A DNA stretch of 16,217 bases from a virus (IMGVR_UViG_3300029057_000032:1-16217), one strand, 5' to 3'. Shown: positions 1 through 16,217, counted from the first letter of the stretch. Notes: generated by a model not told the origin, from the letters alone. Made by a program: numbers and translations.

Positions 1-613
1 CTCTTAGTTTTACTCAAGTATCAACTGGCATCTCATTATCACAATAAGATAATCCTAAAATTCCAATATCTCTATCTTCTGATTTTAAATAGAATATTGC
101 TATCTTATTAACATCATTAGATTTAAATGTATAATACATTCTTCTATCTAATTCTTTTATATCTTCAACATCTCCAAATCATCCTCCTTTTTTAGATGTT
201 TCCAATATAAATAAATAATCAGATAATAGGAAGTCTTTATAGTGACTTGAAACTGGAGCAACTCCAGGTTCTGTTTCTTCACTATTCATAATTCCATAAG
301 TGAATGGTAATCCTCCTAATCCTGAACTGCCATTATGATACTCAATAACTCAAGCTCTATCTGCATTCGTATTTAAAAGATCTTTAAGGATATATCTAAC
401 ATTAAGATCCACTTCTTGTCGTATTACTTGATTAGTATTATGAACTGTTTCTATATAACTTACAACTTTATCATATATTATTCCTGGATTAGTACTTATA
501 ATTATTACATAAGAAATAAATATAAATCCAAATCCACCTTTAATTATTTTCCACAGTCCATATTTATCTACTCATTCTAATACCTTTCCAAACCAGTTTA
601 ATTTATTTTCCAT
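1..613 (-). CDS. Hypothetical N-terminally membrane-anchored protein. C-terminus runs off the window. Translatable only if TGA is sense (4 in-frame TGA codons).
   Basis: ATG at 611-613 overlaps the TAA of the upstream gene (TAATG, 611-615). Hand translation triplet by triplet gives 204 codons open to position 1 with no TAA or TAG. The only interruptions are TGA at 572-574, 350-352, 179-181 and 14-16. Product: MENKLNWFGKVLE[W]VDKYGLWKIIKGGFGFIFISYVIIISTNPG...ADRA[W]VIEYHNGSS...KKGG[W]FGDVED...PVDT[W]VKLR. It has one hydrophobic helix (GGFGFIFISYVIIIS). The standard-code track calls no ORF here. Confidence 0.7.
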
Positions 614-1039: not shown

Positions 1040-1723
1040 TTACTTACTCTTTTTATTGTTATCACTTGAAGGGAAATCATAAGCTCTTTGCAGAGGACCT
1101 TCACAAGAATTATATCTCCAACCTTTACCTCTAGCTCCACCTAACCAAATAGTACAAGATGAACTTGAATACATATTTGGATACATATCTTTAAGAGGTT
1201 TATAAGAATACAATTCAGGAAAATCATTATAATATGTAATTACCCAATTTTGTAATCTCGTTTTAAAGAAATCTGCTTTATCTCTATAATATTTCTTAAT
1301 AAGATTAACTTGGCTAATATCAGAAGTTAAATCTTTCTCATCATCAGTCCTCATAACCCCAAAATTACTCAGCTTAAATGAGATGGGTATAGTAATCTCA
1401 CTTAATACTTGATAAAGTAAATAAGGCTGAATATAGTAATCTAGCAATTCTTTATATCTATGATTTTCTGGGTCATCTATTGAAGTAGGATCATAAATAG
1501 GAGGTTCTATTGGATGAACTGGTTTATTTGGATCTTTTCAATCAATTACTAATTTCTGAATCTTTTCTAAGAGCTTAGTTCCAATTAATGACTGAAGCTC
1601 AATATCTTGTGCAAGTTTAATTGCTGACTGAAGATATTTACCAGAAACATTATTGTCTAGATTAGATTCTGATTTTATATAATCTTCAGATATTAATAGT
1701 ACATTTCTATAATTATTTTCCAT
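1040..1723 (-). CDS. Head-tail connector/adaptor-like protein, 227 aa. Fusion of track ORFs 1538..1723 and 1040..1447 across a sense TGA at 1538-1540.
   Basis: ORF 1538..1723 stops at TGA (plus-strand tca, 1538-1540). The next 31 codons ([W]KDPNKPVHPIEPPIYDPTSIDDPENHRYKELL) run in frame, with no TAA or TAG, into ORF 1040..1447. The M at the start of that ORF is really an internal TTG Leu. ATG 1721-1723 overlaps the portal TAA (TAATG). The N-terminus (EDYIKSESNLDNNVSGKYLQSAIKLAQDIELQSLIG) resembles the gp6-like connector motif from memory, and the gene lies directly after the portal gene. Confidence 0.6.
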
Positions 1724-2805
1724 TATTCAACTTGTTTAGTATCAGCTTCATTAAGGCTAAATGGTGAAATTGTGATTGAATTCTGCATTCCAAAGATCTT
1801 ATCAAATGAATCACAAATCTCTTTCTGAATAGGTCTAATCATAGTTCTATTATAAAGCTTGAATGAAGATTCAAATTCTTGCTCATTAAAACCAGTTGAA
1901 TCTGAGTTAATTCCAAATAAGTTAGGATTAGCTCTGAAGGCACAGAATATTTGATCTCTGGTTCTCTCAGATAATGATTGATATTTCTCATCAAAATCAT
2001 CAGAATCTAATCTTTCAATAGTAGTCTTATTTGCCTCATCTGCATTATATGAAATCAATATTCTGCCAGCATTCTGATAACCAGAGAACTTCTCATTAAT
2101 ATTCCTCTCAATCTCCTCTCTAATTTCATCTGTAGGTTCCCCATTATTAAAGTTAATAATAAGATTACCCATAAATCCATTATTGATGTTATTTAAATGG
2201 AATTCATTAATATTTTTCTCAGTTTCGCAAGATAAAATAGCAGCCCCATAAACAGGAATAGGATATACTCCTCTTGTTATATAACCTTTATTATAAAATA
2301 TACTAGCTGGATTTTCATCCCCAGCTCCAAATTTTGGATATTTTATAGCTTTTACAGACCAAGCTGTCCAATCAGTTGCATAATATAATACATCATTCTT
2401 TTCACTCGACCTTACATTCATAAAATCAATATGATAGATCTCTGCAACTCTTCCGAGCATATCTCTAATTACTTGGATAGCATAACCTCCAAATATCATC
2501 TTATCAATAGTGATTTTTCTCATTATATCAACTATTGTTTCACCTTTCTTGTTTACAACTACTTCAAATCCTGGAGCATTACATTTAACATCGTTACCAA
2601 CAATAAAGTCAGCAGAACCATTAATAATGGATTGGAGAGTGGCAACATTTAAATATAAATCCCATAGATATAATGGATATTTGTTATCTTCTCCCCACAT
2701 TACATAATCTTTTCCCCTCACTTTAGTTTCTGTAGGTAATACGATATTACTTGCAATAAATGGATCAATAGCACTTAACTGAACTTTTGTTTTATTTTCG
2801 CTCAT
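1723..2805 (-). CDS. Portal protein (Phage_portal / HK97-type family), 360 aa
   Basis: Intact ORF ending in TAA, with an in-frame TAA two codons upstream of the ATG. The sequence ...YQNAGRILISYN...DDFDEKYQSLSERTRDQIFCAFRANPNLFGI... matches the remembered portal core motif (r..I..af.vPp.llG). The N-terminal segment LYLNVATLQSIINGSADFIVGN is also portal-like. All 4 Trp codons are TGG. Confidence 0.7.
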   Translation of the reverse strand: MSENKTKVQLSAIDPFIASNIVLPTETKVRGKDYVMWGEDNKYPLYLWDLYLNVATLQSIINGSADFIVGNDVKCNAPGFEVVVNKKGETIVDIMRKITIDKMIFGGYAIQVIRDMLGRVAEIYHIDFMNVRSSEKNDVLYYATDWTAWSVKAIKYPKFGAGDENPASIFYNKGYITRGVYPIPVYGAAILSCETEKNINEFHLNNINNGFMGNLIINFNNGEPTDEIREEIERNINEKFSGYQNAGRILISYNADEANKTTIERLDSDDFDEKYQSLSERTRDQIFCAFRANPNLFGINSDSTGFNEQEFESSFKLYNRTMIRPIQKEICDSFDKIFGMQNSITISPFSLNEADTKQVE

Positions 2806-3184: not shown

Positions 3185-3260
3185 ATTTTACAGCAATTTA
3201 CATTAGTTTTACATATCTTTTTCTTAAAATATAAACCAATTTACTAATGTATTAAAATAA

Positions 3261-3286
3261 TTAAAGGAGACCTAAGCCTCCTTTAA
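3261..3286 (-). terminator. Intrinsic-terminator-like hairpin downstream of the fibre gene cluster
   Basis: Minus-strand RNA: TTAAAGGAG-GCTTAGGT-CTCCTTTAA, a 9-bp stem with an 8-nt loop, followed by TTATTTTAAT. It lies about 55 nt after the TAA at 3340-3342, inside the largest intergenic gap in the window (3185-3339). Confidence 0.5.
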
Positions 3287-3339
3287 TGTCAAGTTTTTTA
3301 CTCACTCAAAGTACTAAGAAAAATAAAAACTGACAAAAA

Positions 3340-4305
3340 TTATGCTGACGCTAAAGTTCAGTTTTTAGATGTAGCTAATGATTTCTGTTCTTCAGTAAGT
3401 GCATTATAAACGTTAGTATAAAAAGTTAAAGTTTTGGTATCCTTTCCAGTTAAATCACTAACATTTGTAATAATATCGGTTACTGATTGACTATTTAGTG
3501 CTCTAAAATTTGTTAAATTCATACTTTTATCAGCTCCTTCAACACCCCCAAAATAAGTAACAGTAGTATTAGCAAATGCACATATTGAAGTTTTATTTAG
3601 ATCTTCTATTAATGTGCAATTATTTAATTTAATTTTTCCTACTGTTGTAACACCCTCATTATATGAATTAAAGTAATGATATAAAGCTAGTTGTCCATTA
3701 ATAACTTCAATTTCAGGAACATTACTGCTAACAGAATAAAAGAAAAATTGTAAAGATGATACACCAGTATCAACTTCATTTATCACTTTTAAAGTAGTTG
3801 GTAAATTAGAAGCATTAAAGAATGTTCTTATTGCATAATTTCTACTAGAGGGTAAGGGATTAATTAATTCTAAATTATTTAGTGTGCCTTGAAATCCAGA
3901 AAATGAGTAACTACCCCCAACATTAGTTCTTATATTATCAATATATATATTATATGTGTTTTGAAAGGCATATGAAGCATCATATACTTTAGACAGATCA
4001 ATATGACTTGATATATCTATTGTAGATATAAAATTAGCCCCATCAAATCAATAATTTATATTATCTGGAAGAGAATATTCTATATTATCATATTGCTCTT
4101 GTGTCATACTAGAATGTGCAAATGTTAATCCATAATCATTTAAATTAATCTTTCCTCCACCTCCAGAAATCTGTCCTATCTTATCTGCATAGCTTCTAAA
4201 GGTATCTGAATCTGATACAGCAACACCTTTAGCTACAATAGCATCTTTAATGGCACTCTTAGTACCTTCAAGATACGTTAATTTATCAGAAATTGTATTT
4301 GCCAT
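3340..4305 (-). CDS. Tail fibre / receptor-binding protein, paralog 1 (321 aa). It has a conserved fibre N-terminus, a BspA/DUF285-like LRR region and a shared C-terminal tail. Fusion of ORFs 4048..4305 and 3358..3786 with 2 sense TGA codons.
   Basis: TGA at 4048-4050 is followed by 87 in-frame codons without TAA or TAG, leading into ORF 3358..3786. The M at the start of that ORF is an internal GTG. TGA at 3358-3360 is followed by TLASA and then TAA at 3340-3342. The junctions read ...DNINY[W]FDGANF... and ...SLATSKN[W]TLASA*. The N-terminus MANTISDKLTYLEGTKSAIKDAIVAKGVAVSDSDTFRSYADKI is a motif I recall as typical of gut-phage tail fibres. Confidence 0.75.
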
Positions 4306-4306
4306 A

Positions 4307-4960
4307 TTAGATTACTTCACCATTAATTGTATCAAGAGTAGTTGAAATATTACCAATCTGAGCTTGAATAGCTGAAATTTCTCCATCTAACTCTGTCATC
4401 TTTGTATTATATGCATCTGTAGTTACATAGTTTGATAACTCACTTTTATCTGCTTTAAGTGCAACTTCATCTTTCGTAGCTAATCCAGATACATCAGGAA
4501 TCTTATTCTCTACAGCTGTAAGCTCTTCTTTAGTAGCAAAATCACTAGTATCAGGAATTTCTGCTTTAGTTGCATAGTTACTTAAATCTACAGATAATTG
4601 CAGACCTTCTCCATTTCTATGTAAAGATAGAGGTTGATTAGCTTGAAATACTTCCATTTTAGAAGTTTCTAATTCTTGAACCTCTCCTTTAAGATTAGTA
4701 ATCTCAGTATTAATTGGAACAAGTTTAGCATCAATAGATTGATCTACTAAAGGTGGAACTTGATCTTCAATACTTTCTGTTACTTTAGTATTAATTAACT
4801 CTTCTGCTTTCTCCTCAGAAATGTAATTACCTTTAGGTTGAAATCTTTCATCTGCTTCAATCTTAGTATAAGAACCAACAGGAAGTTGTCCAGGTTCAAT
4901 ACCACATTTCTTACTTACATAAAAAGTTTGTGTATTTTTAGTATTCTTAAGTATAATCAT
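4307..4960 (-). CDS. Tail fibre protein with coiled-coil region and short fibre repeats, 217 aa
   Basis: Intact ORF bounded by TAA. It has heptad-like stretches (ITNLKGEVQELETSK, MTELDGEISAIQAQIGNISTTLDTI) and repeated D-x-S-x-[FY]ATK[AE]E motifs. It shares the QLSVDLSxY motif with the 711-aa fibre. Confidence 0.65.
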   Translation of the reverse strand: MIILKNTKNTQTFYVSKKCGIEPGQLPVGSYTKIEADERFQPKGNYISEEKAEELINTKVTESIEDQVPPLVDQSIDAKLVPINTEITNLKGEVQELETSKMEVFQANQPLSLHRNGEGLQLSVDLSNYATKAEIPDTSDFATKEELTAVENKIPDVSGLATKDEVALKADKSELSNYVTTDAYNTKMTELDGEISAIQAQIGNISTTLDTINGEVI

Positions 4961-4962
4961 AA

Positions 4963-6078
4963 TTATCTAATTCGATTTATGCTCCAATTCTTTGAAGCGA
5001 TTAATGATTTCTGTTCACTTGTTAATTTATCATATGCAGTAGATTTGAATGATATACTTGTATAAGAGGCTACTGCTGTGCCAATAGATTCAGCTATAGT
5101 TTGTAATGAATCTGTAGATAAATTTGGAGATTGTGCAAAATAAAGAACTCCTCCTTTAGTTAAACTCTCTCCTAATCCATTTAAAGCTCCTACAGTTACT
5201 AATTCTGGACAATTTGCAGCAAAACTAGTACAATCTGTAACAAGATGGCAATCTATTTCTGGTGTAGCTGTTAATCTACTACAAGTACTAAACATATAGC
5301 TTATATCTGTAATTCCAGTAAAGGTAAAATTACTTGGAATAGTTGTTAGATATAATGCTCTATGAAACATATGATTACAATCTCCTTTAAAGGGAATATT
5401 AATCGTTATATTATCTATATTAGTAGCTCCATCAGCAGTTTCTGCAAATGCTCATTTTGGATCTACTAATACAAGATTTTGAAAATTATTCATTACAGAG
5501 AAATCATTATTATCTATTTTTACTCCAATAAATAAATAATTTGCACTTACTTCTTTAGTAGTTGTAGGTATTTTAACATTAGATAAAGTAGCACTATGTA
5601 TTGTTTGACCCCAAAATTGAAATTCACTAGACCATCTTCCATATGCTTCATTAAGATTAGTAATCTCCTGGTTATTTAGATCAAAATGTGATGTTTTAAA
5701 AAACCCTCCTTTTCTACTTAAATCTCCACTATTTAACTTTACATCTGCATATGTTTGAGCAGAACCTATAATACTACAAAGAGGTACACCATCTATATTA
5801 AGGGCTAATTCACTTAAATCAGCAGTAAAACTAATTACTGTAGAAGTAAGGCCAGATCCTCTACCCATTCAATCCCTTTGTATATCATTTATAGTTCCAT
5901 CATAACTGCTAAATACATAACTACAAGGATCAACTATTGTAGTGCCTTGAGGAACTGGATTAGCAACTGTAACTATTTGTGGATTACATATAGGCCAGAC
6001 TTTGGTACTGCCAACATAAATAGCAGTACCTTGTCTGTCACCTACATAAAATGTTTTTAAATCATCTCTAATATTCAT
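4963..6078 (-). CDS. Tail fibre / receptor-binding protein, paralog 2 (371 aa). Fusion of ORFs 5869..6078, 5452..5868 and 4963..5370 with 2 sense TGA codons.
   Basis: TGA at 5869-5871 abuts ATG 5866-5868 in frame (...DIQRD[W]MGRGSG...). TGA at 5452-5454 is followed by 27 in-frame codons (AFAETADGATNIDNITINIPFKGDCNH) leading into Met 5368-5370. The C-terminal part has BspA/DUF285-like LRR units (ITDISYMFSTCSRLT, VTDCTSFAANCPELV) and the shared tail LTSEQKSLIASKNWSINRIR. Confidence 0.75.
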
Positions 6079-6079
6079 A

Positions 6080-8215
6080 TTATTCTACAATTAAATATTG
6101 TGTATTAGGATCTTTAGTTGATAAACCATCATATTCTGATTGAGTTAGAACAGTAATAGTATTTATTTGAGGTTGGGTTCCAGTTCCAGCTTCAATATAG
6201 TTTCCAGCAGGCTGAATACCTAAATCTGATAAACTCTTATTGCCAGATAACTCAACAGAATTAATCTGAGGTTTATTTGTTAACTGAGTATAGTCAGTAG
6301 TCCCTCCACCTCCAGATATTTCAAGATTACCTTCTCCTAAAATACTTTCACCATTAATAGTCTTTATATTAGTACCAGAAACTAGTTGCTCTTGATAACT
6401 ATGATAACTAGTATCTGCTGATACTCCAGTTGGAGTAATAGTAGTTTGAATTACAGTATGATTAGCTGTAGTACTTTCAAAATGGAAAGTAGCTTGAATA
6501 TTTTCTCCTGAAACAAAACATACTTCTGGAGCTGCTATATCACCATAACCTAGAATATTTACATAATAAAGCTCAAATGGTGTTTTATTAGCTATAGCAT
6601 TCTTAACAGCAGCGAAATCTCCAGAAAGATGAGTAATGGAATTTATAAATAGAAATGGAATATTAGAACCACTTTCAATTTCTATATTACCTTCTCCAAG
6701 TAAAGACTGACTATTGATTGTTTTGATATTAGTTCCACTTACAAGTAAATCTTGCTTAGTAGCCATCTCTTTATCAAGAGAATCAATCTTATCTCCATCT
6801 TCTTCTTGTTTTGTTTTAATAATTGATATATCTGAAGTATTAGTTGCTACTTGAGTAGATAAAGATTCTACCACAGAAGAATCAGCTTTACCAGCAAGTT
6901 CTGTTTTTGTTGCATAATCTCCTACAGGCTGTTTAGTAGCAAGCTGCTCATCAACATAAGTCTTATCTGCTTTACCTGCTAAATCTCCAGAAACCTCTGC
7001 TTCAGTTACAAAGTTAGAATCATTAGTAAGCTCACTAACTTTAGTTGGAATATCACTCTTTAAAGCATAATCACCAACTGGTTGGTATCCAGATAAATCT
7101 ACAGATAATTGGGATTTATCTTCATTAAAAGCTAATGGAGCTTGTGGAGTAAATACACCTTGCTTAGCTGCAAGTTTCTCATCTACTTCATCTTTAGTAT
7201 ATCCTTTATTAGTAAGATCAACCTCAGTAACTTTAACAGTCATATTACCATTATTTACTAAGATTGCATTAATAACTACTAATACACCATTATCTTGGAA
7301 ATAATAACCATATAAATCAATAGTTTCAGGATGTTCAATAGTTGCAACAGGAATAACTATAATATCACCTTTATATGTAATCTGGCAGAATAAATAGAAG
7401 TCCAGATTAGTTCTAATAAAGTCATAGATATGTTTCTGTCTTACAGGATCATTCTCATCTAAATTAAGTAAGAAATGATTCTCAAAAGCAGAGATTACAT
7501 TATCTATAATAGATATATTCTTTCCTGCTGTAAGCGTTTCCTGTTTTGAAGCTATCTCTTTATTAATAGCTGTATTTAAAGCATCAATTTCAGCTTTGGT
7601 ATATTTATCTGCTAATTGTGCATATAGAGGACCATTAACAATACCAGCTTGATTAGTCTCTGTATTATATATTGGAAGTTCAACTGCTTCTCCAGTTTGA
7701 TTACCAAATACAGGAGCTAAAGTAACTTTAGATGGGACTGATTGAATATTAATGGCAGGTACTATTGAAGCTGCTCCAGATAATTCAGTTCCATTTAAAG
7801 ATGGTTTGTTACGAATAGTATTATAATCTGCAGAAACAGTATTCTCTTCAATTACTATACCATCACCTTGAACAAGTGTATTTTGCTTTCCAGCAGTGGC
7901 TTCAGTAATCTCTGCAGTTACCTCTTCTTTAGTTGGATAGTCAGCTAGTTTCTCAGTAATCTGATTATCAACACCTTCAACTGACGGAATTCCAAGTTCA
8001 TCAGAAGTCATACTTCCATTTAACTCAACTCCATTAATTTCAGGCTTATTTTGAATATCAAAATAACTGTTTGTTCCTAACTGAGAACCATCCATAACCT
8101 TAACTTCATCATCCTTGTCAATAACAATAACTTTAGTCACATTTGACTTATCTATTGTTTCGACTTCAAGGACATTAAGATAGGGAAGAATTGTCTTTTC
8201 AGTTTCGTTTGCCAT
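6080..8215 (-). CDS. Long tail fibre protein, 711 aa
   Basis: Intact ORF bounded by TAA. It has three NKPx[IL]N[GS]xELxG units, two copies of LVSGTNIKTINxxSxLGEGNxEI, repeated YATK/LAGKADK fibre motifs and Gly-rich linkers. It contains no Trp codons at all. Confidence 0.75.
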   Translation of the reverse strand: MANETEKTILPYLNVLEVETIDKSNVTKVIVIDKDDEVKVMDGSQLGTNSYFDIQNKPEINGVELNGSMTSDELGIPSVEGVDNQITEKLADYPTKEEVTAEITEATAGKQNTLVQGDGIVIEENTVSADYNTIRNKPSLNGTELSGAASIVPAINIQSVPSKVTLAPVFGNQTGEAVELPIYNTETNQAGIVNGPLYAQLADKYTKAEIDALNTAINKEIASKQETLTAGKNISIIDNVISAFENHFLLNLDENDPVRQKHIYDFIRTNLDFYLFCQITYKGDIIVIPVATIEHPETIDLYGYYFQDNGVLVVINAILVNNGNMTVKVTEVDLTNKGYTKDEVDEKLAAKQGVFTPQAPLAFNEDKSQLSVDLSGYQPVGDYALKSDIPTKVSELTNDSNFVTEAEVSGDLAGKADKTYVDEQLATKQPVGDYATKTELAGKADSSVVESLSTQVATNTSDISIIKTKQEEDGDKIDSLDKEMATKQDLLVSGTNIKTINSQSLLGEGNIEIESGSNIPFLFINSITHLSGDFAAVKNAIANKTPFELYYVNILGYGDIAAPEVCFVSGENIQATFHFESTTANHTVIQTTITPTGVSADTSYHSYQEQLVSGTNIKTINGESILGEGNLEISGGGGTTDYTQLTNKPQINSVELSGNKSLSDLGIQPAGNYIEAGTGTQPQINTITVLTQSEYDGLSTKDPNTQYLIVE

Positions 8216-8216
8216 A

Positions 8217-8438
8217 TTATTTATTTTTATAAGATTCCTCTTGTTCTTTTAAATATCTTTCATTTGTTTCTGCATCAATAACCCTATAAATAGATATATC
8301 AAAGGTTAAAGGGCAATATAAAATAGTTGATGCACTATACTCTTTAATATCATCACCTTCTTTATATGAGGTGATAAAATATCCTTCATCAGAGTATAAC
8401 TTTATAAATATGCTAGTCTCAATATGTAAATGTTCCAT
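8217..8438 (-). CDS. Small hypothetical protein, 73 aa. A fibre assembly or chaperone role is suggested by position only.
   Basis: Intact ORF. ATG 8436-8438 overlaps the upstream TAA (TAATG). Its own TAA at 8217-8219 lies 1 nt before the next ATG. Confidence 0.5.
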   Translation of the reverse strand: MEHLHIETSIFIKLYSDEGYFITSYKEGDDIKEYSASTILYCPLTFDISIYRVIDAETNERYLKEQEESYKNK

Positions 8439-9625
8439 TATGCTAATATCCAGTTTTTATTAGTAGCTATTGCTTTCTGTTCATCTGATAATTTTGCCAG
8501 ATTGGTAGCTCCTAATGTTAAAGTTTTGCTATTCTCCCCTGTTAAATCAACTAATGCATTAATAACAGACATTAAAGAATCAGTAGTAAGATTGGTACTT
8601 GCTGATAGATATAATCCTGCTCTAAGCTGACCGTTTACTGTAAGATTAGTAATTCCACTACATTTTGAAAATATAGGATTTATTGAACTTTCTTGAGATG
8701 TGTATGATGGAATGTTTAATGTTACATCTGTTAATCTAATGCAATCTCCAAACATATTAGTAGTAGTTACTAATTTAGGAGCGTCTAAATTAAGTGTTTT
8801 CAGGCTATTATATCCAGATAAGGTACCTCTGCTAAACATATTAGACCCATCTGTTAATTCAGGCATTGGAATAGTGAATGATGTTAAATCAGCACATTCT
8901 GTAAACATATATCTGCCATCTTCTAATTTAGGCAATTGCATAGTGAACTCCTTAATTTTTGATCTTTGACATTTATATCTTCCATCAACTAAATTTTCTC
9001 AACCTACAACATTTGCAGGAACAGATGTTCCCGTAAACCTATATAAATTAACTACAGCTTGTGTAATATCATATGTATTCATTGGATTCGTAACATTAAC
9101 AGTTACATCAATAAACTCCATATAATCATATCCATCTGCAGGATGAATCATTGTAGTTCCATTCTCTGTAATAGTAACTTCTCTATGCTCCTCAACTGGA
9201 ATCTCTACATCTACTTCAATACTTGATAAACCTTGATAGCCAGCATCAGGTTTAACTTCAGTCATTGATAGGTTTTTATCTATTGTTATATGTTTCTCTT
9301 GTAAAGTAGGAGTTGGTACTGGAACATTTATTTGTGCAGAAACCTTCTCCATAACATCATAATCTGGATCAGGTAAAATATCTATTAATCCATTAGATGT
9401 AATTGTAATCTCTTTAGTAGCTTGTACTGTAGGAACAACAACATCAACAGATACATTTACTTTCGACATACCATCATAACCCTCATCTGGAGTTACAACG
9501 AACTCAGCATTCTGAGTATATTCTACAGACTTCTCCTGTAATTTACATTCTTGAGCAGCTAAAGCTTCAATATCTCTTGAAGTTGTATTCTTTGCTACTT
9601 CTGGTGTTGTATATTTAATAGCCAT
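8438..9625 (-). CDS. Tail fibre / receptor-binding protein, paralog 3 (395 aa). N-terminal tandem repeats plus a C-terminal BspA/DUF285-like LRR region. Fusion of ORFs 8999..9625 and 8438..8941 across TGA 8999-9001.
   Basis: TGA at 8999-9001 is followed by 19 in-frame codons (ENLVDGRYKCQRSKIKEFT) leading into Met 8939-8941. The bridging peptide LVDGRYKCQRSKIKEF is itself an LRR unit resembling the next one, LEDGRYMFTECADLTSF. This argues for one continuous protein. It ends ...LSDEQKAIATNKNWILA*. Confidence 0.75.
9086..9541 (-). repeat. Four tandem intragenic repeats of about 35-40 aa, consensus (I)T(I)xxNG...xPdxGYDgmSxVxVxVxVP
   Basis: The four copies align by eye: EKSVEYTQNAEFVVTPDEGYDGMSKVNVSVDVVVP, KEITITSNGLIDILPDPDYDVMEKVSAQINVPVP, EKHITIDKNLSMTEVKPDAGYQGLSSIEVDVEIPV, REVTITENGTTMIHPADGYDYMEFIDVTVNV. 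Confidence 0.7.
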
Positions 9626-10271: not shown

Positions 10272-11177
10272 TTAGGCTTTGGCACCAAGAACTACCTCAT
10301 CAGGGAATGCAACCTGTACGCCAGCGTTAAATTCAATAGCTAATCTAAATTCGCGGAAATCTTGTGAATACCACAATTCAAACTTCTCTTCATCGTTCAT
10401 CATATCGCAACCATAGAAGAAGTTCTTATCTAACTGACCAGCAACAATCTTATCAGTTCCATTAAGACCATTAACAGCGATTACTTTAACCTGCGAACCA
10501 GGAAGCATAATCTCACCATTAAGATTCTCACCACTATAGTGGTAGTAGTTCTTAGCAACTAACTCCTGGATAAATTTACGGAAAGTATCACTGCCAACTA
10601 AGATAGAAGCACCATCCAGAACCTTCTCAGGAATAGCGTTATAAACAGCCATAATGTCATCATAAGCAGATGCTCCAGTAATTACTACATCAACAACATC
10701 ATCAGCAGCACCAAGGATCTTTAACAGACCATCAAAATACTTCAGGTTAATTGTTTCAGAAGCAGTATCACCCTGCCAAATAGCAGTCTCAATAGCAGCC
10801 TTAACATTCTCAACTACTGCATTTACGAAATCCTCTTCAAAAGGAAGCGTCTTCTGACCAGCAGCTACTCGTACTTGATACTGAGTCCAGTATTTAAGCA
10901 TCTCTTTATCACAATATGCCATATTGATCTTAATATTACCAGTAGCCAGAATTCTCTGAGAAAGAGTCTGAGTTCCAGCTTCATCCCAACCACAAGCTAG
11001 GCCATCGCCAAACTGAATAGCAGTTGATAACAGGTTAAGAGCAGCACTAGTTTTGATGTCAGTTTGAAGATTGAACAACGAAGCACTCTTAGCCTTTAAT
11101 ACAGCCTCTTTAATAAGAGGAAGACGTCTCTGCTCTACATAAGCAGTAAGACTAGTCATTACAGGACTATTTGCCAT
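10272..11177 (-). CDS. Major capsid protein (HK97 fold), 301 aa
   Basis: Intact ORF immediately downstream of the protease and scaffold genes. Capsid-like features are ...AIWQGD...YFDGLLKIL... and the C-terminal FELWYSQDFREFRLAIEFNAGVQVAFPDEVV. GC is about 45% in the stretch I counted. All 4 Trp codons are TGG. Confidence 0.75.
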   Translation of the reverse strand: MANSPVMTSLTAYVEQRRLPLIKEAVLKAKSASLFNLQTDIKTSAALNLLSTAIQFGDGLACGWDEAGTQTLSQRILATGNIKINMAYCDKEMLKYWTQYQVRVAAGQKTLPFEEDFVNAVVENVKAAIETAIWQGDTASETINLKYFDGLLKILGAADDVVDVVITGASAYDDIMAVYNAIPEKVLDGASILVGSDTFRKFIQELVAKNYYHYSGENLNGEIMLPGSQVKVIAVNGLNGTDKIVAGQLDKNFFYGCDMMNDEEKFELWYSQDFREFRLAIEFNAGVQVAFPDEVVLGAKA

Positions 11178-11815: not shown

Positions 11816-12409
11816 TTAATGTTTAACTCTTTTTATCTTCTTAATCATATTAAGGATCTCTTTTATTTCGTCATATTCATCAGACTTTCTCTCTAAAGTA
11901 AATAAACCTTCAATTGAGAACCCTTTAAACTTACCAGCTTTAATTGCATCCCAAATAACTTGATTATCTACTTTATAAGTGGCAAATAAAGAACCATCAG
12001 GAACATCCTGGAATTCAACTGGAGATATTCCTCTATTAATATCCTTTACATAGATTTCTTGTAGAGTAATTCCATTTAAATCAGAATCTTCTAAATGTTC
12101 AATATTTACATCTGTAGTTCTCTTATCATACAGCATCTTCTCTGCCATTTTACGAAGAGTTTCCTTATCATACTGTATGTAGTATTCTCCGAGTTTCTCA
12201 TCTCGTCTGAAAATTGGAGTATCACTTAACATTAAGCAAGATGTTACTAAATGCTTATCTTCATCCATCGAGAACTTCTGAGAATTACTAAAAGCAACCC
12301 AGTTAACTTGTGTAGCTGGTTTGCTTGTTAAAGCAACATATTCTATTCCATCACAATCATCAGTAATCACTGCCTGAAATAATGGAAGATCATTATAAGT
12401 AATTTCCAT
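11816..12409 (-). CDS. XkdF-like putative prohead serine protease (Peptidase_S78_2-like), 197 aa
   Basis: The segments ...DVNIEHLED..., ...DGSLFATYKVDNQVIWDAIKAGKFKGFSIEG... match the remembered XkdF-family pattern (vn.eH ... GsW...kV.d.e.W..vk.G..kGfSieG). The gene lies upstream of the scaffold and capsid genes. Confidence 0.6.
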   Translation of the reverse strand: MEITYNDLPLFQAVITDDCDGIEYVALTSKPATQVNWVAFSNSQKFSMDEDKHLVTSCLMLSDTPIFRRDEKLGEYYIQYDKETLRKMAEKMLYDKRTTDVNIEHLEDSDLNGITLQEIYVKDINRGISPVEFQDVPDGSLFATYKVDNQVIWDAIKAGKFKGFSIEGLFTLERKSDEYDEIKEILNMIKKIKRVKH

Positions 12410-12458: not shown

Positions 12459-12514
12459 TAATGTAACCTTTTTACTCATATTTTGTAGTTAATAAGAATA
12501 AAAAAGTTACATTA
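12459..12514 (-). promoter_or_regulatory. AT-rich inverted repeat between the tape-measure and protease genes. Either a weak terminator or a protein-binding site.
   Basis: The arm taatgtaaccttttt (12459-12473) pairs with aaaaagttacatta (12501-12514). This gives 14 bp with one bulged C and a 27-nt loop. It begins 8 nt after the TAG stop at 12522-12524. Confidence 0.4.
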
Positions 12515-12521
12515 AACATTT

Positions 12522-14837
12522 CTAGAATGAAGCATTAGATTCAGTAACTGCTACCTTAGTTTGAGCTGAAGTAATATCAGATTCAACAACATAACACTTA
12601 ACTGGATTATTAAGTTCATCAGTCTCTTTATTTCCAAGTAAATTTCGAGTATACTCAACAGGAGCTTGTGTAAGTGCAGATGGAGCGGATACTGAAGATG
12701 ATACATCACTACCAGATATTTCTTCATTTTCAATATTTTTAATTTGAAGTAATCCCATAGCAATAGCTGCAGCAGCAGCAATACCACCTAATACAGGACC
12801 TACTACTGGAATTCCTGCCATAGAGTTATAAGCATTCATTGCTGCAGAAGCGGTATTAAATACGGTAGATATTTTAGCTATAGACTTATAATTTTCCATA
12901 GCTTTTTCTCTCTCCTTTAATGACTTCTTGGAATTATTTGCCTCAAATTTATAGTTTTGAGCTACAGCATCACCTAAACTTCCTAATGCAGCAAAACTTC
13001 CTTGAACAGCAGCTACAATGTCTTTAATTTCATCTTTTTTAGCAGCCTTTATTTTTTCTCCATTAGCTACAATAGCATTTGCAGCAGCAGTATCATTTGC
13101 TTCTCTTTCTGCATTTAATCTTGCATACTCATTATTATACTCTTCTTGAGTTATTAAGCCATTATCAAACGATTCTTTTAAAGTGGTTTGTAATTCTCCA
13201 ATTCTTTTATTATCTCTTTCGTAGAATCCTAACTGTATTTCAAGTAGCTCATTAGATTGTGTTATTCTATCGTTCTTTTCACTCTTTATATCTCCCGCAG
13301 TCTTGTATTCGTTTCCAAGACCTGCATTATGTGTATATGTCTTATTATATTTAGTATCTAACTCAGATTGCCTTTGATCAAAAAATCTATTCTCTCGTTC
13401 TCTAAGTTGTTCTAAAGAATTAATTCTATTATTAATTTCTTTACGATACCGCTCGTTCTGATTGTCTAGATACTCTTTATCATAAGCATCATTTATTTGC
13501 TTTAATCTCTTTCTATATTCCTCAACTGTTATAAGCTCTTTATCTTTAGCTGTTTTAAGAGCATCTAATTGATTTTGATATTTGGTATTTAATTCATCTA
13601 ACTCTCTAGCTTCATCATCTAATAGCAGTTTTCTATTCTCTTCATAGAAATCATTGATAACCTTCAGTAAATCAGCGTTACGTTTCTTTGCATCTTCAAT
13701 ATTCTTTAGATAGTTAGCCTTAGCCTCTTCTCTGGCTTTACGCTCTGCAGATATTTCCATCAATTTAACCTTTTCATAAGTTTCTGAAGTTTTCTGCATT
13801 AAACTATTTCTCTTCTCTATATATGCATTGTAGATACCAGAAGCTTCGTCGTAAGCAGCTCTTTGATCATCATTTAACTTACTTAAAAAGAAATCAACTT
13901 CATTAGAACTAGTTTTTAATCCTCATTGAATCGACTTAGAATAATCTTCCCAAGTGTCATATCCAGATTTCTTAAACTCTTTTCTGAAGTATTTATTACT
14001 CTTAAGTATATCTGTAAATGAATCATTATAAGCTTTAGCTACACTTCCAAATTCCTGGGATATTTTAGCATTTAATTTACCTAATTCTTGAGCATAATCC
14101 TTTCAGATTTGTATTTCATTCTTTTTACCTTCAGCTAAATCTCTTTCTCTCTGTCTTTCTAATCAAGCAATTTCTGTATTAGCTTGTGCATAGCTAGTTC
14201 CTCATTGGTCTGTTATGTCTTTTAACCCTGAAATACTAATCTTTAAATCACCAATTCCAGATGCTGCTTTGATTGCAAAGTCTACTAACATTCCTAATGC
14301 TACTACTAATGCTCCAATACCTGTTGATATAATAGCAGTTCGTAGCACTCCCATCGCAACAGATAAACCTCCAGTAGCAGTAGTAGCACCAGCCATCGCA
14401 ACAGATAAAGCCTTAAATGATTTTACTCCATTAAGAACACCTTCACCTAAACCCTTTAATCCTCCAATTCCTTGAACTATAGCAATAGCTGCTTGAAGCT
14501 TAACCATAGTTTTCTGGAGATTCTCTGTATCTCTTCCAAATAAAGTAAATGCAGCACTTACAGCCGAAACTCCACCTGCAAGACCGCCAGCTACTTGGTT
14601 AATACTATCAAAAGCTTTAACTGCATTTACAGTCTTACCTTGCATAGATTCAGTAGCTACATTAAGCTTGTTTTGTGCACTTACAAGCTCTTCAAGTTTT
14701 TTGGAATAGTCAGAACTACCAATTTCCAATGATTCAAGTTCGTCAGTCAAGCCAGCTACTTGTTCTCGTAGCTGCTTGATTGACTTTGTACTTTTAGTAG
14801 TATCTATATCTATTACCTTTTTAATTTCTTCAGCCAT
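12522..14837 (-). CDS. Tape-measure protein, 771 aa. Fusion of ORFs 14202..14837 and 12522..13799 plus the ORF-less stretch 13800-14201. It carries 4 sense TGA codons.
   Basis: Hand translation of 13800-14201 is in frame with both flanking ORFs and has no TAA or TAG: ...ITDQ[W]GTSYAQANTEIA[W]LERQRERDLAEGKKNEIQI[W]KDYAQELGKLNAKISQEFGSVAKAYNDSFTDILKSNKYFRKEFKKSGYDTWEDYSKSIQ[W]GLKTSSNEVDFFLSKLNDDQRAAYDEASGIYNAYIEKRNSLMQKTSE.... The TGA codons are at 14202-14204, 14163-14165, 14103-14105 and 13923-13925. The protein has long coiled coils and Gly/Ala-rich hydrophobic segments (GIGALVVALGMLVDFAI, GIPVVGPVLGGIAAAAAIAMGLL), which are typical of tape-measure proteins. It is the only gene ending in TAG. 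Confidence 0.75.
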
Positions 14838-14839
14838 AT

Positions 14840-16217
14840 TTAAATAGTAATATTTTTAATAGTATCTGCATTTAAAGTAAGTTCTTCCTCATATTTAACA
14901 ACACTTGATAATTGTACTTCAAAATGGAATGGAACTCCTTTTTGAACATATAAATAGTACTCTCCAGTTGTTGCATCACAATATGTACTATCTACAAAGT
15001 TGTCATTATCTACATAGATATAAGGTTGTACATCTAATACTTTACCATCTGCATCTGTTACTTTTCCAGAAAGCTTTACTGATTTAGATGGATCAGGAGT
15101 TTGATAAAAATATACTTGTCCTAATCTTTCATAAATATCAGATTGAGCTACTAAACTTAGATAGAAGTTATCTTCAATATATTTAGGATTTTCATTATAT
15201 TCAATAGTCATAGTACTAATTCCAGGTAATCCTTCCATTGGTGAAATATTTGTAATCTTCAAATTATTATACCAACTAACTTTCCAAGGAACATTAGATT
15301 CTATAGTTACAACTTTACTTCCAGCTTCATACCCTACAGTAACTTCTGGGTCACTTACTTCTATGTATTTACCTAAAGTAGATACTCCTCCTATATAATT
15401 ATTGATGTCTTGAACTCTTATAAATTCACATCTAGTAGTTGCATCAGAATTAACATCATAAGCATCTATCTTATTTAATACCCAATAACTATCTTCAAAA
15501 TAGTAAAACTGTCTTAACATATCAAAGTTTACTTGTAAATCATTTAATTTTACAAAACAAGTAACTTTCTTAGTATTAACATCAAATTGATCAGTATAGA
15601 ACTCTTTCCAGAATTGAGAATAAATAACACTTTGTTCTGGATATGCAATTTTATCTATATAAATTTCTCTTGGTAATCCAAAATCCCAACTAGATATTAC
15701 ATAATTACTTGATATATTATATCTTATGAATTGTGGTAAAGAGGTTCTTTTAATTGCAATCTTAGCACCAGCTTCATTAGTTTCTCTAGTAGTATATAAA
15801 TAGCAAGGTTCAGAATCATTTAATACAGACATTTCTGTAACATCATCAGTAATCCAATATGTAATAGGATTGCCATCAATATCTTTCATCTCTACATTGC
15901 CATTATAAAATAGTAATGTCGATTTAATTTCTTCTAAACTTTGCTCATCATTATCTAATGAATAGAAACAAGTCTTTGCAAATATATCATTACCAGGAAC
16001 ATCTCACCACTCTGTAGTCTTAGATGAATCAATGAAATTTACTCCATAAAGATCCTGATCGTTTGTTTTTCTTTCAGTAGACGTAGAATGGAATAATTGA
16101 TAAGTAATATTATCATTTAGGAAGCAGGGAACTGGCGAACTTGAACTATTAAAATAGTTTCTATAATACTTATCTACATCTCTTGCAGATATTACATTTT
16201 CATATAAGTTATCTGAG
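14840..16217 (-). CDS. Tail / baseplate-associated protein with a BACON-like domain and a C-terminal CarboxypepD_reg-like beta-sandwich. N-terminus runs off the window. 1 sense TGA codon.
   Basis: The frame of ORF 14840..15889 stays open upstream to 16217. Every triplet was checked and there is no TAA or TAG. The single TGA is at 16004-16006 (...SSKTTEW[W]DVPGNDIF...). The BACON-like motif VTIESNVPWKVSWYNNLKITNISPMEGLPGISTMTIEYNENP falls within about 15104-15364. The CarboxypepD_reg-like segment SGKVTDADGKVLDVQPYIYV...TGEYYLYVQKGVPFHFEV falls within about 14885-15079. Confidence 0.7.

What the first reader, a model, noticed from the sequence alone, without database searches (positions are those of the whole stretch)
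3340..3360. An in-window paralog alignment identifies the TGA-encoded residue as Trp
Three fibre proteins end with a shared tail:
- ...LSDEQKAIATNKNWILA* (stop at 8438; the W is TGG at 8450-8452, checked on the DNA)
- ...LTSEQKSLIASKNWSINRIR* (stop at 4963)
- ...LTEEQKSLATSKN[TGA]TLASA* (TGA at 3358-3360, TAA at 3340-3342)

The TGA occupies exactly the conserved Trp column of the KNW motif. The true TAA follows 5 codons later, at about the same distance as in the paralogs.

From memory, BspA/DUF285-type proteins often end with a conserved K-G/N-W motif.

The other TGA contexts also suit an aromatic or hydrophobic residue: GG[.]FGD, RA[.]VIEYH, TEW[.]DVPG, IA[.]LERQ.

This favours table 4 (Trp) over table 25 (Gly).
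Basis: partly seen in the sequence, partly recalled or inferred. Interest (0 to 1): 0.75.

Follow-up and report, generated by a model that had tools for sequence, protein, structure and literature searches.

The report
TGA codon read as tryptophan

Summary

**Evidence for Trp at 3358-3360**
- The TGA sits in the Trp column of a conserved C-terminal ...EQK..A..K(N/G)W.LA tail.
- Allelic orthologues in related phage contigs carry the identical tail SKN-W-TLASA, encoded with TGA in most and TGG in some.
- Homologues in phages without in-frame TGA use TGG there, and one uses TAC.
- Among the 120 best database homologues the column is W 102, Y 3, C 1 and Gly 0. Another 13 are cut off at ...KN.

**Evidence across the window**
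- Across all 15 in-frame TGAs, TGA<->TGG is by far the commonest swap.
- Gly codons almost never pair with TGA.
- The summed BLOSUM62 score is W +40, Y +7.5, G -19.
- Long-ORF coverage rises from 0.85 to 0.97 when TGA is read as sense.

**Context**
- TGA->Trp gut phages are already described (Borges et al.), so this is a new member of a known kind.
- One point stays unexplained. A complete relative genome has no tRNA gene, and its seven non-structural proteins scanned gave no release-factor or Trp-tRNA-synthetase hit.
- TGA is avoided in the capsid, scaffold, tube-like and early genes, but is common in fibres, the tape measure, lysis genes and homing endonucleases.
- What decodes TGA is unknown.

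The parts
3358..3360 (-). In-frame TGA that encodes the conserved Trp of the C-terminal K-N-W-T-L-A tail
   Evidence: Searches give the sequence. One search shows orthologues with the same tail using TGA or TGG. Searches show homologues with W (TGG), never Gly.
3340..3342 (-). True TAA stop of the LRR fibre gene, five codons after the TGA
   Evidence: The family consensus ends W-T-L-A-stop.
3260..3287 (-). Intrinsic-terminator-like hairpin plus T-run, about 50 nt downstream of the TAA
   Evidence: 12-pair stem. One was found in the region against 0.0 expected from shuffles.
3340..4305 (-). LRR (BspA-like/DUF285-related) tail-fibre or receptor-binding protein, 321 aa, with two TGA-Trp codons (3358-3360 and 4048-4050) and no TGG
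4963..6078 (-). Paralogous LRR protein, 371 aa. Its tail KNW uses TGG at 4984-4986. In-frame TGAs at 5452-5454 and 5869-5871
   Evidence: At column 5452-5454, 13 relatives carry TGG.
8438..9625 (-). Paralogous LRR fibre protein, 395 aa. Its tail KNW uses TGG at 8450-8452. In-frame TGA at 8999-9001
   Evidence: (sub-threshold LRR_5 hit). At column 8999-9001 relatives split TGA 7 / TGG 7, and L038 has TGG.
12522..14837 (-). Tape measure protein with four in-frame TGAs (13923-13925, 14103-14105, 14163-14165, 14202-14204)
   Evidence: One column shows TGG and TAT in relatives. The other three are variable.
14840..16216 (-). C-terminal part of a 1149-aa tail protein, with an in-frame TGA at 16004-16006
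   Evidence: Relatives at this column: TGG 10, TAT 15, TGA 7.
1040..1723 (-). 227-aa virion-module protein with an in-frame TGA at 1538-1540
   Evidence: TGA and TGG alternate among 98-100% identical proteins.
2..613 (-). Membrane-anchored protein next to the endolysin gene in relatives. It is truncated by the window end and has four in-frame TGAs (572-574, 350-352, 179-181, 14-16)
   Evidence: L038 has TGG, TAT and TGG at the first three columns.
10275..11177 (-). Major capsid protein, TGA-free with 4 TGG. It was the anchor used to collect relatives
   Evidence: TGA fraction 0.01 across 42 distinct sequences.
1723..2805 (-). Portal protein, TGA-free in the window with 4 TGG
   Evidence: PHROG portal families, E = 2e-30; Pfam Phage_portal on the identical gene.

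Best explanation
The window is the virion-gene module of an uncultured tailed phage of about 31 kb from the human and animal gut. The phage uses TGA as a tryptophan codon (genetic code 4) alongside TGG.

The TGA at 3358-3360 encodes the conserved Trp of a C-terminal ...EQK..A..K(N/G)W.LA tail. Three paralogous leucine-rich-repeat (BspA-like/DUF285-related) tail-fibre proteins share this tail. That gene really ends at TAA 3340-3342, and a terminator hairpin follows.

**Shown**
- The identity of the amino acid.
- The true gene end.
- Recoding across the whole genome.
- The absence of any tRNA gene from the phage genome.

**Inferred**
- A UGA-reading Trp-tRNA, or an equivalent activity, must come from outside the phage genome.
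- I think the host is most likely a Bacteroidota bacterium with the standard code. Suppression would then be incomplete or delayed, which would explain why early and high-copy genes avoid TGA.
- A host that natively uses code 4 is the main alternative.
For: **Coding density**
- Long-ORF coverage rises from 0.85 under code 11 to 0.97 with TGA as sense. Reading TAG as sense gives no such gain.
- The sixteen genes are then tightly packed on one strand.

**The KNW column**
- It is TGA or TGG only in relatives.
- It is TGG in contigs without in-frame TGA, and TAC in one.
- Among the 120 best database homologues it is W 102, Y 3, C 1, Gly 0, with 13 truncated at ...KN.

**Codon pairings**
- Window TGA pairs with relatives' TGG 70 times. 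The next partners are TAT 27 and GGA 12.
- Relatives' TGA pairs with window TGG 158 times.
- In HSPs of at least 70% identity, TGA->TGG occurs 32 times against 9 for all other changes.
- Summed mean BLOSUM62 over the columns: W +40.2, Y +7.5, F -0.5, G -18.8.
- TGA and TGG alternate between proteins that are 98-100% identical.

**No decoding machinery in the phage**
- ARAGORN finds no tRNA in the window or in the clade loci. These include a complete 31,033-bp relative (L120+L001).
- An Rfam scan at E <= 1 finds no tRNA.
- Relaxed ARAGORN thresholds give only noise inside genes.
- Pfam scans of seven non-structural proteins of the complete relative show homing endonucleases, an M15 endolysin and the large terminase, but no RF or TrpRS. 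Two of the seven, including the 572-aa early protein, gave no hit. PHROG scans of the window's structural proteins showed none either.

**Host inference**
- None of 15 window genes has a Shine-Dalgarno-like motif, the same as in bona fide Bacteroidota prophage relatives.
- Capsid relatives sit in large Bacteroidota contigs.
- The divergent promoter region holds 4 TAnnTTTG boxes in 404 bp. The genome-wide density predicts about 0.3.

**TGA avoided where expression is early or high**
- The TGA share of Trp codons is 0-0.01 in the capsid, scaffold, tube-like and 572-aa early genes.
- It is 0.4-1.0 in the tape measure, the finding's fibre gene, the lysis genes and the homing endonucleases; the other LRR fibre paralogues range 0.2-0.5.
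- In the window alone the split is 0/14 against 15/34, Fisher p = 0.002.

**Literature**
- Gut phages with TGA->Trp, mostly predicted on standard-code hosts, are described. Only 35% have a detectable TGA suppressor tRNA (10.1101/2021.08.26.457843).
Against: **On the amino acid**
- There is no proteomic evidence.
- Three tape-measure columns are variable (Glu, Thr, Ile, Gly) and say nothing either way.
- One column aligns with Gly in distant relatives, although that is explained by an indel edge.

**On the decoding mechanism**
- No tRNA(UCA) was found, so its identity elements cannot be checked.
- Long genes carry 4-6 TGAs, which demands efficient suppression. That is hard to reconcile with a standard-code host that receives no phage tRNA.

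**On the host**
- The assignment rests on indirect signals only.
- The closest MAG hits are labelled Clostridia, Acutalibacteraceae and Lachnospiraceae. They sit on short, possibly mis-binned contigs.
Confidence: 0.93

Rival explanations
1. TGA encodes glycine (code 25), as in phages of Absconditabacteria and Gracilibacteria.
For: - The genome is 31% G+C, like those hosts.
- A few TGA<->GGA/GGN pairings exist: 12 in one direction and 14 in the other.
- Column 1538-1540 aligns with Gly in distant relatives.
- Code-25 phages exist.
Against: - No Gly appears at the KNW column in 120 homologues.
- Only 14 of more than 9,300 window-Gly pairings are TGA, against 158 of about 1,200 window-TGG pairings.
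- The BLOSUM sum is G -18.8 against W +40.2.
- The Gly column is an indel-edge artefact, with TGA/TGG alternating in identical proteins.
Confidence: 0.02
2. TGA is a genuine stop here. The genes are split or truncated (pseudogenes, or proteins ending ...SKN), and the downstream codons are untranslated.
For: - Public gene callers did truncate 13 homologues at ...KN.
- The most abundant virion proteins contain no TGA.
- The phage carries no suppressor tRNA.
Against: - The reading frame, the residues after TGA (TLA, the family consensus) and the distance to TAA are all conserved.
- TGA interchanges with TGG in otherwise identical proteins.
- Under this reading, fifteen stops in essential tail genes, including four in the tape measure, would be conserved across dozens of independently assembled ~30 kb genomes.
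- Long-ORF coverage rises from 0.85 to 0.97 with TGA as sense.
- Under the code-4 gene model all 15 window ORFs of at least 100 aa end in TAA or TAG, without long overlaps or gene fusions. Close TGA-free relatives do not use TGA as a stop either.
Confidence: 0.02
3. TGA is Trp, but because the host itself natively uses code 4 (no RF2, its own tRNA-Trp(UCA)). This would replace the idea of a phage-specific code on a standard-code host.
For: - A complete 31 kb genome has no tRNA gene, and the Pfam scan of seven of its non-structural proteins found no RF or TrpRS.
- In-frame TGA occurs in most genes, including several just downstream of the divergent promoter.
- Up to 5-6 TGAs per long gene require efficient decoding.
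- DUF285 is a family name associated with Mycoplasma.
Against: - TGG remains the commoner Trp codon (520 against 383 distinct sites) despite 31% G+C. From established knowledge, in native low-GC code-4 bacteria such as mycoplasmas UGA dominates.
- TGA is almost absent from the capsid, scaffold, tube-like and early genes.
- Relatives at 56-67% capsid identity have no in-frame TGA, so the code varies at phage-lineage level.
- There are no Shine-Dalgarno motifs, and relatives are Bacteroidota prophages. As far as I know, no free-living code-4 Bacteroidota has been described.
Confidence: 0.3
4. TGA encodes selenocysteine or cysteine.
For: - One database homologue has Cys at the KNW column (P0112).
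- Relaxed ARAGORN calls spurious 'tRNA-SeC(tca)' hits.
Against: - Those hits lie inside coding genes and appear only at noise thresholds.
- The BLOSUM sum for Cys is -28.4.
- The sites lie in structural proteins, aligned to Trp, Tyr and Phe.
Confidence: 0.01

Closest known systems
Alternatively coded (code 4, TGA->Trp) gut phages described by Borges et al. (bioRxiv 10.1101/2021.08.26.457843; Nat Microbiol 2022), including the small Garnet, Amethyst and Topaz clades (22-34 kb)
   Same: - It is a low-GC gut phage with in-frame TGA aligning to Trp.
- Close relatives have no in-frame TGA.
- TGA stops are depleted in those relatives.
- Recoding is concentrated in tail and lysis genes, and the early replication-type gene is TGA-free.
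- No suppressor tRNA is detected, as in 65% of their code-4 genomes.
   Different: - I could not test membership of any named clade, because their sequences are not in the tools.
- The representatives of those small clades shown in the paper's figures are TAG-recoded.
- Here the major capsid, scaffold and tube-like genes are essentially TGA-free, so 'structural genes are recoded' holds only for low-copy structural genes.
- The complete ~31 kb genome shows no integrase in the genes scanned.
Opal-recoded crAss-like phages of Bacteroidota (Crassvirales; Yutin et al.; reviewed in PMC10136315)
   Same: - The inferred host phylum is Bacteroidota.
- G+C is about 30%, there are no Shine-Dalgarno motifs, and TGA reads as Trp.
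   Different: - The genome is about 31 kb rather than about 100 kb.
- There are no crAss-type genes and no match in the phage collection.
- From my own knowledge, crAss-like recoded phages commonly carry suppressor tRNAs. This phage has none.
Code 25 phages of Absconditabacteria and Gracilibacteria (PMC10746230)
   Same: Low-GC phages with in-frame TGA that rely on the host's own TGA-decoding tRNA.
   Different: TGA there is Gly. Here Gly is excluded.
BspA-like LRR_5 / DUF285 (PF13306 / PF03382) phage tail proteins
   Same: - Database homologues of the three window proteins carry PF03382 and PF13306.
- They share the N-terminal ...KGV...SGGG module and the C-terminal ...LGSTNLAKLTDEQKAIATNKNWTLA tail.
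- They lie in tail and lysis neighbourhoods of other phages.
   Different: - The window proteins themselves score below Pfam's threshold.
- No solved structure is related by sequence.

Membership tests
Genetic code 4 (TGA->Trp) phage | In-frame TGA inside otherwise intact, conserved genes, with longer and tightly packed ORFs when TGA is read as sense | tested here: met
   There are fifteen in-frame TGAs. Long-ORF coverage rises from 0.85 to 0.97. Sixteen collinear genes result.
Genetic code 4 (TGA->Trp) phage | TGA columns align with Trp (TGG) in homologues | tested here: met
Genetic code 4 (TGA->Trp) phage | A tRNA with anticodon UCA and Trp identity (phage- or host-encoded) | tested here: not met
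   No tRNA gene was found in the window, in the clade loci, or in a complete 31 kb relative. The host tRNA set cannot be tested. The literature does not treat this feature as required: only 35% of code-4 phages have one.
Genetic code 4 (TGA->Trp) phage | Direct protein evidence for Trp at TGA | not testable with these tools
   This needs mass spectrometry.
Genetic code 25 (TGA->Gly) | TGA columns align with Gly in homologues | tested here: not met
   No Gly appears at the KNW column in 120 homologues. The BLOSUM sum for G is -18.8. Only 14 of more than 9,300 Gly pairings are TGA.
Phage with a code different from its host (stop-codon recoding used as a regulator) | The host uses the standard code | tested here: inconclusive
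   The signals are indirect: no SD motifs, Bacteroidota prophage relatives and TAnnTTTG boxes. No host sequence is linked to the phage.
Phage with a code different from its host (stop-codon recoding used as a regulator) | Early genes are free of the recoded codon and late genes are enriched | tested here: inconclusive
   The 572-aa divergently transcribed gene is TGA-free in 20 distinct sequences. Several small genes just downstream of the promoter do contain TGA, and the capsid, scaffold and tube-like genes (late) are TGA-free.
BspA-like LRR_5 / DUF285 proteins | A Pfam PF13306 or PF03382 match above the gathering threshold | tested here: not met
   The best hit is LRR_5 at 21.4 bits against 27.7, for protein 8438-9625. 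The other two proteins have no hit. Homologues found by profile search do carry both domains, so the relationship is real but distant.
BspA-like LRR_5 / DUF285 proteins | A conserved C-terminal K-(N/G)-W-x-L tail | tested here: met
   The homologue set was retrieved with a query that contained this tail.

The most novel reading that the evidence does not exclude
A widespread ~31 kb gut phage clade reads TGA as Trp throughout most of its genome while encoding no tRNA, and no release factor or aminoacyl-tRNA synthetase among the proteins scanned, on a probably standard-code Bacteroidota host. If so, the code switch must be made by something not yet described. Candidates are a small phage protein that blocks RF2 or lets host tRNA-Trp(CCA) read UGA efficiently, or a suppressor borrowed from a co-resident element. 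The near-total exclusion of TGA from early and high-copy genes would be the footprint of that mechanism.
Probability: 0.2. Interest if true: 0.75.

Novelty: new member of a known kind. Interest (0 to 1): 0.3.

Why it matters
**Practical**
- Standard-code gene calling cuts these fibre, tape-measure, tail and lysis genes into pieces.
- Public databases hold both truncated (...SKN) and full-length versions of the same proteins.
- Knowing that TGA is Trp, not Gly, gives the correct protein sequences, including the receptor-binding fibres.

**Biological**
- This is a further, apparently common, TGA->Trp gut phage lineage. Individual protein clusters have hundreds of member sequences.
- TGA recoding seems much rarer than TAG recoding in human gut viromes: 21 against 5,706 contigs in PMC9610469.
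- A complete, small genome without any suppressor tRNA makes a compact test case for how such phages get TGA decoded, which is still an open question.

Tried and rejected
- **Isolate phages.** Megablast of the whole window and tblastn of the capsid protein against 50,697 phage records gave no match, so no cultured relative or host is available.
- **PHROG and Pfam scans of the fibre proteins.** They gave almost nothing.
- **PDB sequence search.** Two fibre proteins gave nothing significant.
- **Homologue search with the 2-613 protein (four TGAs).** It returned only 14 clade members, probably called under code 4, so it adds no independent evidence.
- **Possible host contig.**
  - Relative L019 lies on a 148-kb IMG/VR contig, which I hoped was host DNA.
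  - The 7 kb further upstream is still the same phage.
  - A second walk returned the same stretch.
  - I suspect a concatemer or chimera and found no host information.
- **Relaxed ARAGORN thresholds.** Lowering to 80% or 70% to catch an odd tRNA(UCA) gave only noise inside coding genes.
- **Base after TGA.**
  - I looked for a weak-termination signature in the next base.
  - C is depleted after TGA (5% against 12% after TGG). That is not the pattern expected for leaky UGA-C.
  - The sites are phylogenetically non-independent, so this is inconclusive.
- **Deduplicated counts.** They merge TGA and TGG sites that share the same context and so undercount TGG.
- **Selenocysteine, cysteine and sequencing error.** I considered and rejected all three; selenocysteine and cysteine are treated under the rival explanations. 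The TGA is present in more than 20 independent assemblies.

Full report
**1. What is in the window**

All long ORFs lie on the minus strand. With TGA as a stop there are 19 fragments. With TGA as sense there are 16 tightly packed genes. Long-ORF coverage rises from 0.85 to 0.97, and reading TAG as sense gives no such gain.

Profile searches identify these genes:
- a portal (1723-2805);
- a capsid-like protein (10275-11177);
- a head-maturation protease (11819-12409);
- a scaffold-like protein;
- a tape measure (12522-14837);
- several fibre proteins.

G+C is about 31%. There is no tRNA gene.

**2. The observation**

The minus strand reads ...ALTEEQKSLATSKN TGA ACT TTA GCG TCA GCA TAA.

- TGA at 3358-3360 and TAA at 3340-3342;
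- TGG at 8450-8452, with a TAA stop at 8438-8440;
- TGG at 4984-4986, with a TAA stop at 4963-4965.

The three C-terminal domains align with L, E-Q-K and K-N invariant around the W/TGA column. All 15 in-frame TGAs were located and verified. A terminator-like hairpin at 3287-3260 follows the TAA.

**3. Related genomes**

The capsid protein retrieved 55 IMG/VR loci. A second scan with the 2-613 protein retrieved 35 more. Most come from contigs of 29-32 kb.

Joining L120 and L001 gives a complete, circularly permuted 31,033-bp relative. Most close relatives show the same gain in ORF coverage when TGA is read as sense.

Several more distant relatives have no in-frame TGA. They include L038, L041, L044 and L056-L058, at 55-67% capsid identity. 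The low-GC members among them do not use TGA as a stop either.

**4. Which amino acid**

*(a) The KNW column.*
- Allelic orthologues align end to end with the window protein and have the identical tail SKN-W-TLASA. They carry TGA in most contigs and TGG in L002/L119, L005/L109, L010/L106 and L015/L116.
- Homologues in contigs without in-frame TGA carry TGG. These are L038, the pig-gut phage contigs L123-L125, and L126. L127 carries TAC.
- Among the 120 best database homologues the column is W in 102, Y in 3 and C in 1. Thirteen entries are cut off at ...KN by standard-code gene calling, and none has Gly.
- Some of those W residues may themselves be code-4 calls of TGA, which is why I checked codons directly.

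*(b) All 15 columns.*
- Ten show TGG in relatives.
- One shows Phe codons.
- One has only TGA.
- Three tape-measure columns are simply variable.

*(c) Global codon pairings.*
- Window TGA pairs with relatives' TGG 70 times. The next partners are TAT 27 and GGA 12.
- Relatives' TGA pairs with window TGG 158 times.
- About 13% of window-TGG pairings are TGA, against 14 of more than 9,300 window-Gly pairings.

*(d) Substitution scores.* Summed mean BLOSUM62 over the columns is W +40.2, Y +7.5 and G -18.8.

*(e) The one column that looked Gly-like (1538-1540).* It sits at the edge of a clade-specific insertion. Within the clade, TGA and TGG alternate among proteins that are 98-100% identical.

TGA is therefore Trp. 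Gly, Cys and Sec are excluded, and so is a genuine stop.

**5. What the proteins are**

Profile search with the three tails finds 355 proteins. The more distant ones carry Pfam DUF285 (PF03382) and BspA-type LRR_5 (PF13306).

These homologues share two modules:
- an N-terminal ...KGV...SGGG module;
- the tail ...LGSTNLAKLTDEQKAIATNKNWTLA.

In other phages they lie beside tail and lysis genes. The window proteins themselves reach only a sub-threshold LRR_5 score. No solved structure is related by sequence.

Among relatives the central part of the finding's protein varies from 41% to 93% identity, while both ends stay conserved. This fits an exchangeable receptor-binding region. That reading is an inference.

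**6. How TGA is decoded: the unexplained part**

No decoding machinery was found in the phage:
- No tRNA gene was found in the window, in the clade loci or in the complete relative, with either ARAGORN or Rfam.
- Relaxed thresholds give only noise.
- Pfam scans of seven non-structural proteins of the complete relative found homing endonucleases, an M15 endolysin and the large terminase, but no release factor or tRNA synthetase. Two of the seven, including the 572-aa early protein, gave no hit. PHROG scans of the window's structural proteins showed none either.

The TGA share of Trp codons differs sharply by gene family:

| Gene family | TGA share of Trp codons |
|---|---|
| Capsid, scaffold, tube-like protein, divergently transcribed 572-aa early gene | 0-0.01 |
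| Protease, portal | 0.07-0.13 |
| Large tail proteins, terminase | 0.3-0.4 |
| Tape measure, the finding's fibre gene, lysis-region genes, homing endonucleases | 0.4-1.0 |

In the window alone the split is 0/14 against 15/34, Fisher p = 0.002. TGG remains the commoner Trp codon overall, at 520 against 383 distinct sites, despite 31% G+C.

Several signals point to a Bacteroidota host:
- Window genes have no Shine-Dalgarno-like motifs, like confirmed Bacteroidota prophage relatives.
- Capsid relatives sit in large Bacteroidota contigs.
- The main divergent promoter region has four TAnnTTTG boxes in 404 bp.

My best inference is a standard-code Bacteroidota host with an external or unknown source of suppression. 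A native code-4 host is the main alternative, at about 0.3. Both remain untested.

**7. Comparison with what is known**

Borges et al. describe gut phages with TGA->Trp and TAG->Gln. They report:
- recoded phages with close standard-code relatives;
- recoding concentrated in structural and lysis genes;
- a detectable TGA suppressor tRNA in only 35% of code-4 genomes.

The present phage fits that picture. It differs in that its high-copy structural genes are TGA-free. TGA recoding appears much rarer than TAG recoding in human gut data.

The finding is therefore a correct inference about a new member of a known kind.

**8. Verdict**

| Item | Assessment |
|---|---|
| Observation | Confirmed |
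| Interpretation | Supported |
| Confidence that TGA = Trp | About 0.93 |
| Interest | 0.3 |

The more interesting residual question is how a complete 31 kb genome without any tRNA gets TGA read as Trp.

Noticed in passing
window 12463-12510 (minus strand; between the tape-measure stop at 12522 and the protease start at 12409): A long, near-perfect hairpin of the form GTAACTTTTTT...AAAAAGGTTAC. Its RNA fold is -25.6 kcal/mol with z = -9.5, and shuffles predict no pattern match in the window. Similar elements occur in two more intergenic regions of the complete relative: L120+L001 around 14041-14444 and 19056-19316. Its function is unknown; it might be a regulatory or processing site.
   Followed up: partly
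whole window and relatives: TGA is almost never used for Trp in the capsid, scaffold, tube-like and 572-aa early genes. It is the main Trp codon in the tape measure, the finding's fibre gene and the homing endonucleases. This looks like selection against TGA where expression is early or very high.
   Followed up: yes
window, 20 nt upstream of every start; L120+L001 14041-14444: No gene has a Shine-Dalgarno motif: 0 of 15 in the window. The divergent promoter region of the relative has four Bacteroidota-type TAnnTTTG boxes. Together with the Bacteroidota prophage relatives, this suggests a Bacteroidota host.
   Followed up: partly
window ~1723-1735 (portal / next-gene junction), compared with L120 7702-8334, 9417-10001, 11275-11844 and 15108-15599: Relatives carry GIY-YIG, NUMOD and HNH homing-endonuclease genes, for example between the portal gene and the next gene. 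These are absent from the window. The endonuclease genes are themselves rich in TGA, at 0.5-1.0 of Trp codons, so they appear adapted to the same code.
   Followed up: partly
window 3340-4305 compared with orthologues in L002-L120: Both ends of the fibre protein are conserved, but the central region drops to about 41% identity between otherwise close phages. This looks like swapping of a receptor-binding cassette.
   Followed up: partly
window 6083-8215 and 4310-4960: The 711-aa and 217-aa fibre proteins contain no Trp codon of either kind. The 711-aa protein has an internal repeat (..LVSGTNIKTIN..LLGEGNIEI.. occurs twice) and a Phage_tail_C hit on the identical gene.
   Followed up: no
L038, L041, L044, L057, L058 (relatives without in-frame TGA): These low-GC relatives also have no TGA stop among their long ORFs. 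TGA is effectively unused in them, which fits the proposed route in which the stop codon is lost before it is reassigned.
   Followed up: partly
L019 / L129 (IMGVR_UViG_3300045988_175865, 148,631 bp): One relative sits at the end of a 148-kb contig. The 23 kb I could read is all the same ~31 kb phage. The rest may be a concatemer, a chimera or something else.
   Followed up: partly
database proteins P0024, P0033, P0035, P0043-P0052, P0062 compared with P0026, P0031, P0034: Public protein collections hold the same fibre gene in two forms. One is cut off at ...SKN by standard-code calling. The other is a full-length 322-323-aa protein from code-4 calling. This is an annotation inconsistency.
   Followed up: partly
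L062, L063, L071, L076 (MAG contigs labelled Clostridia, Clostridium, Bacteroidaceae, Rikenellaceae): More distant capsid relatives at 34-44% identity and 42-47% G+C also gain ORF coverage when TGA is read as sense. This hints that TGA recoding arose more than once in this phage family.
   Followed up: no
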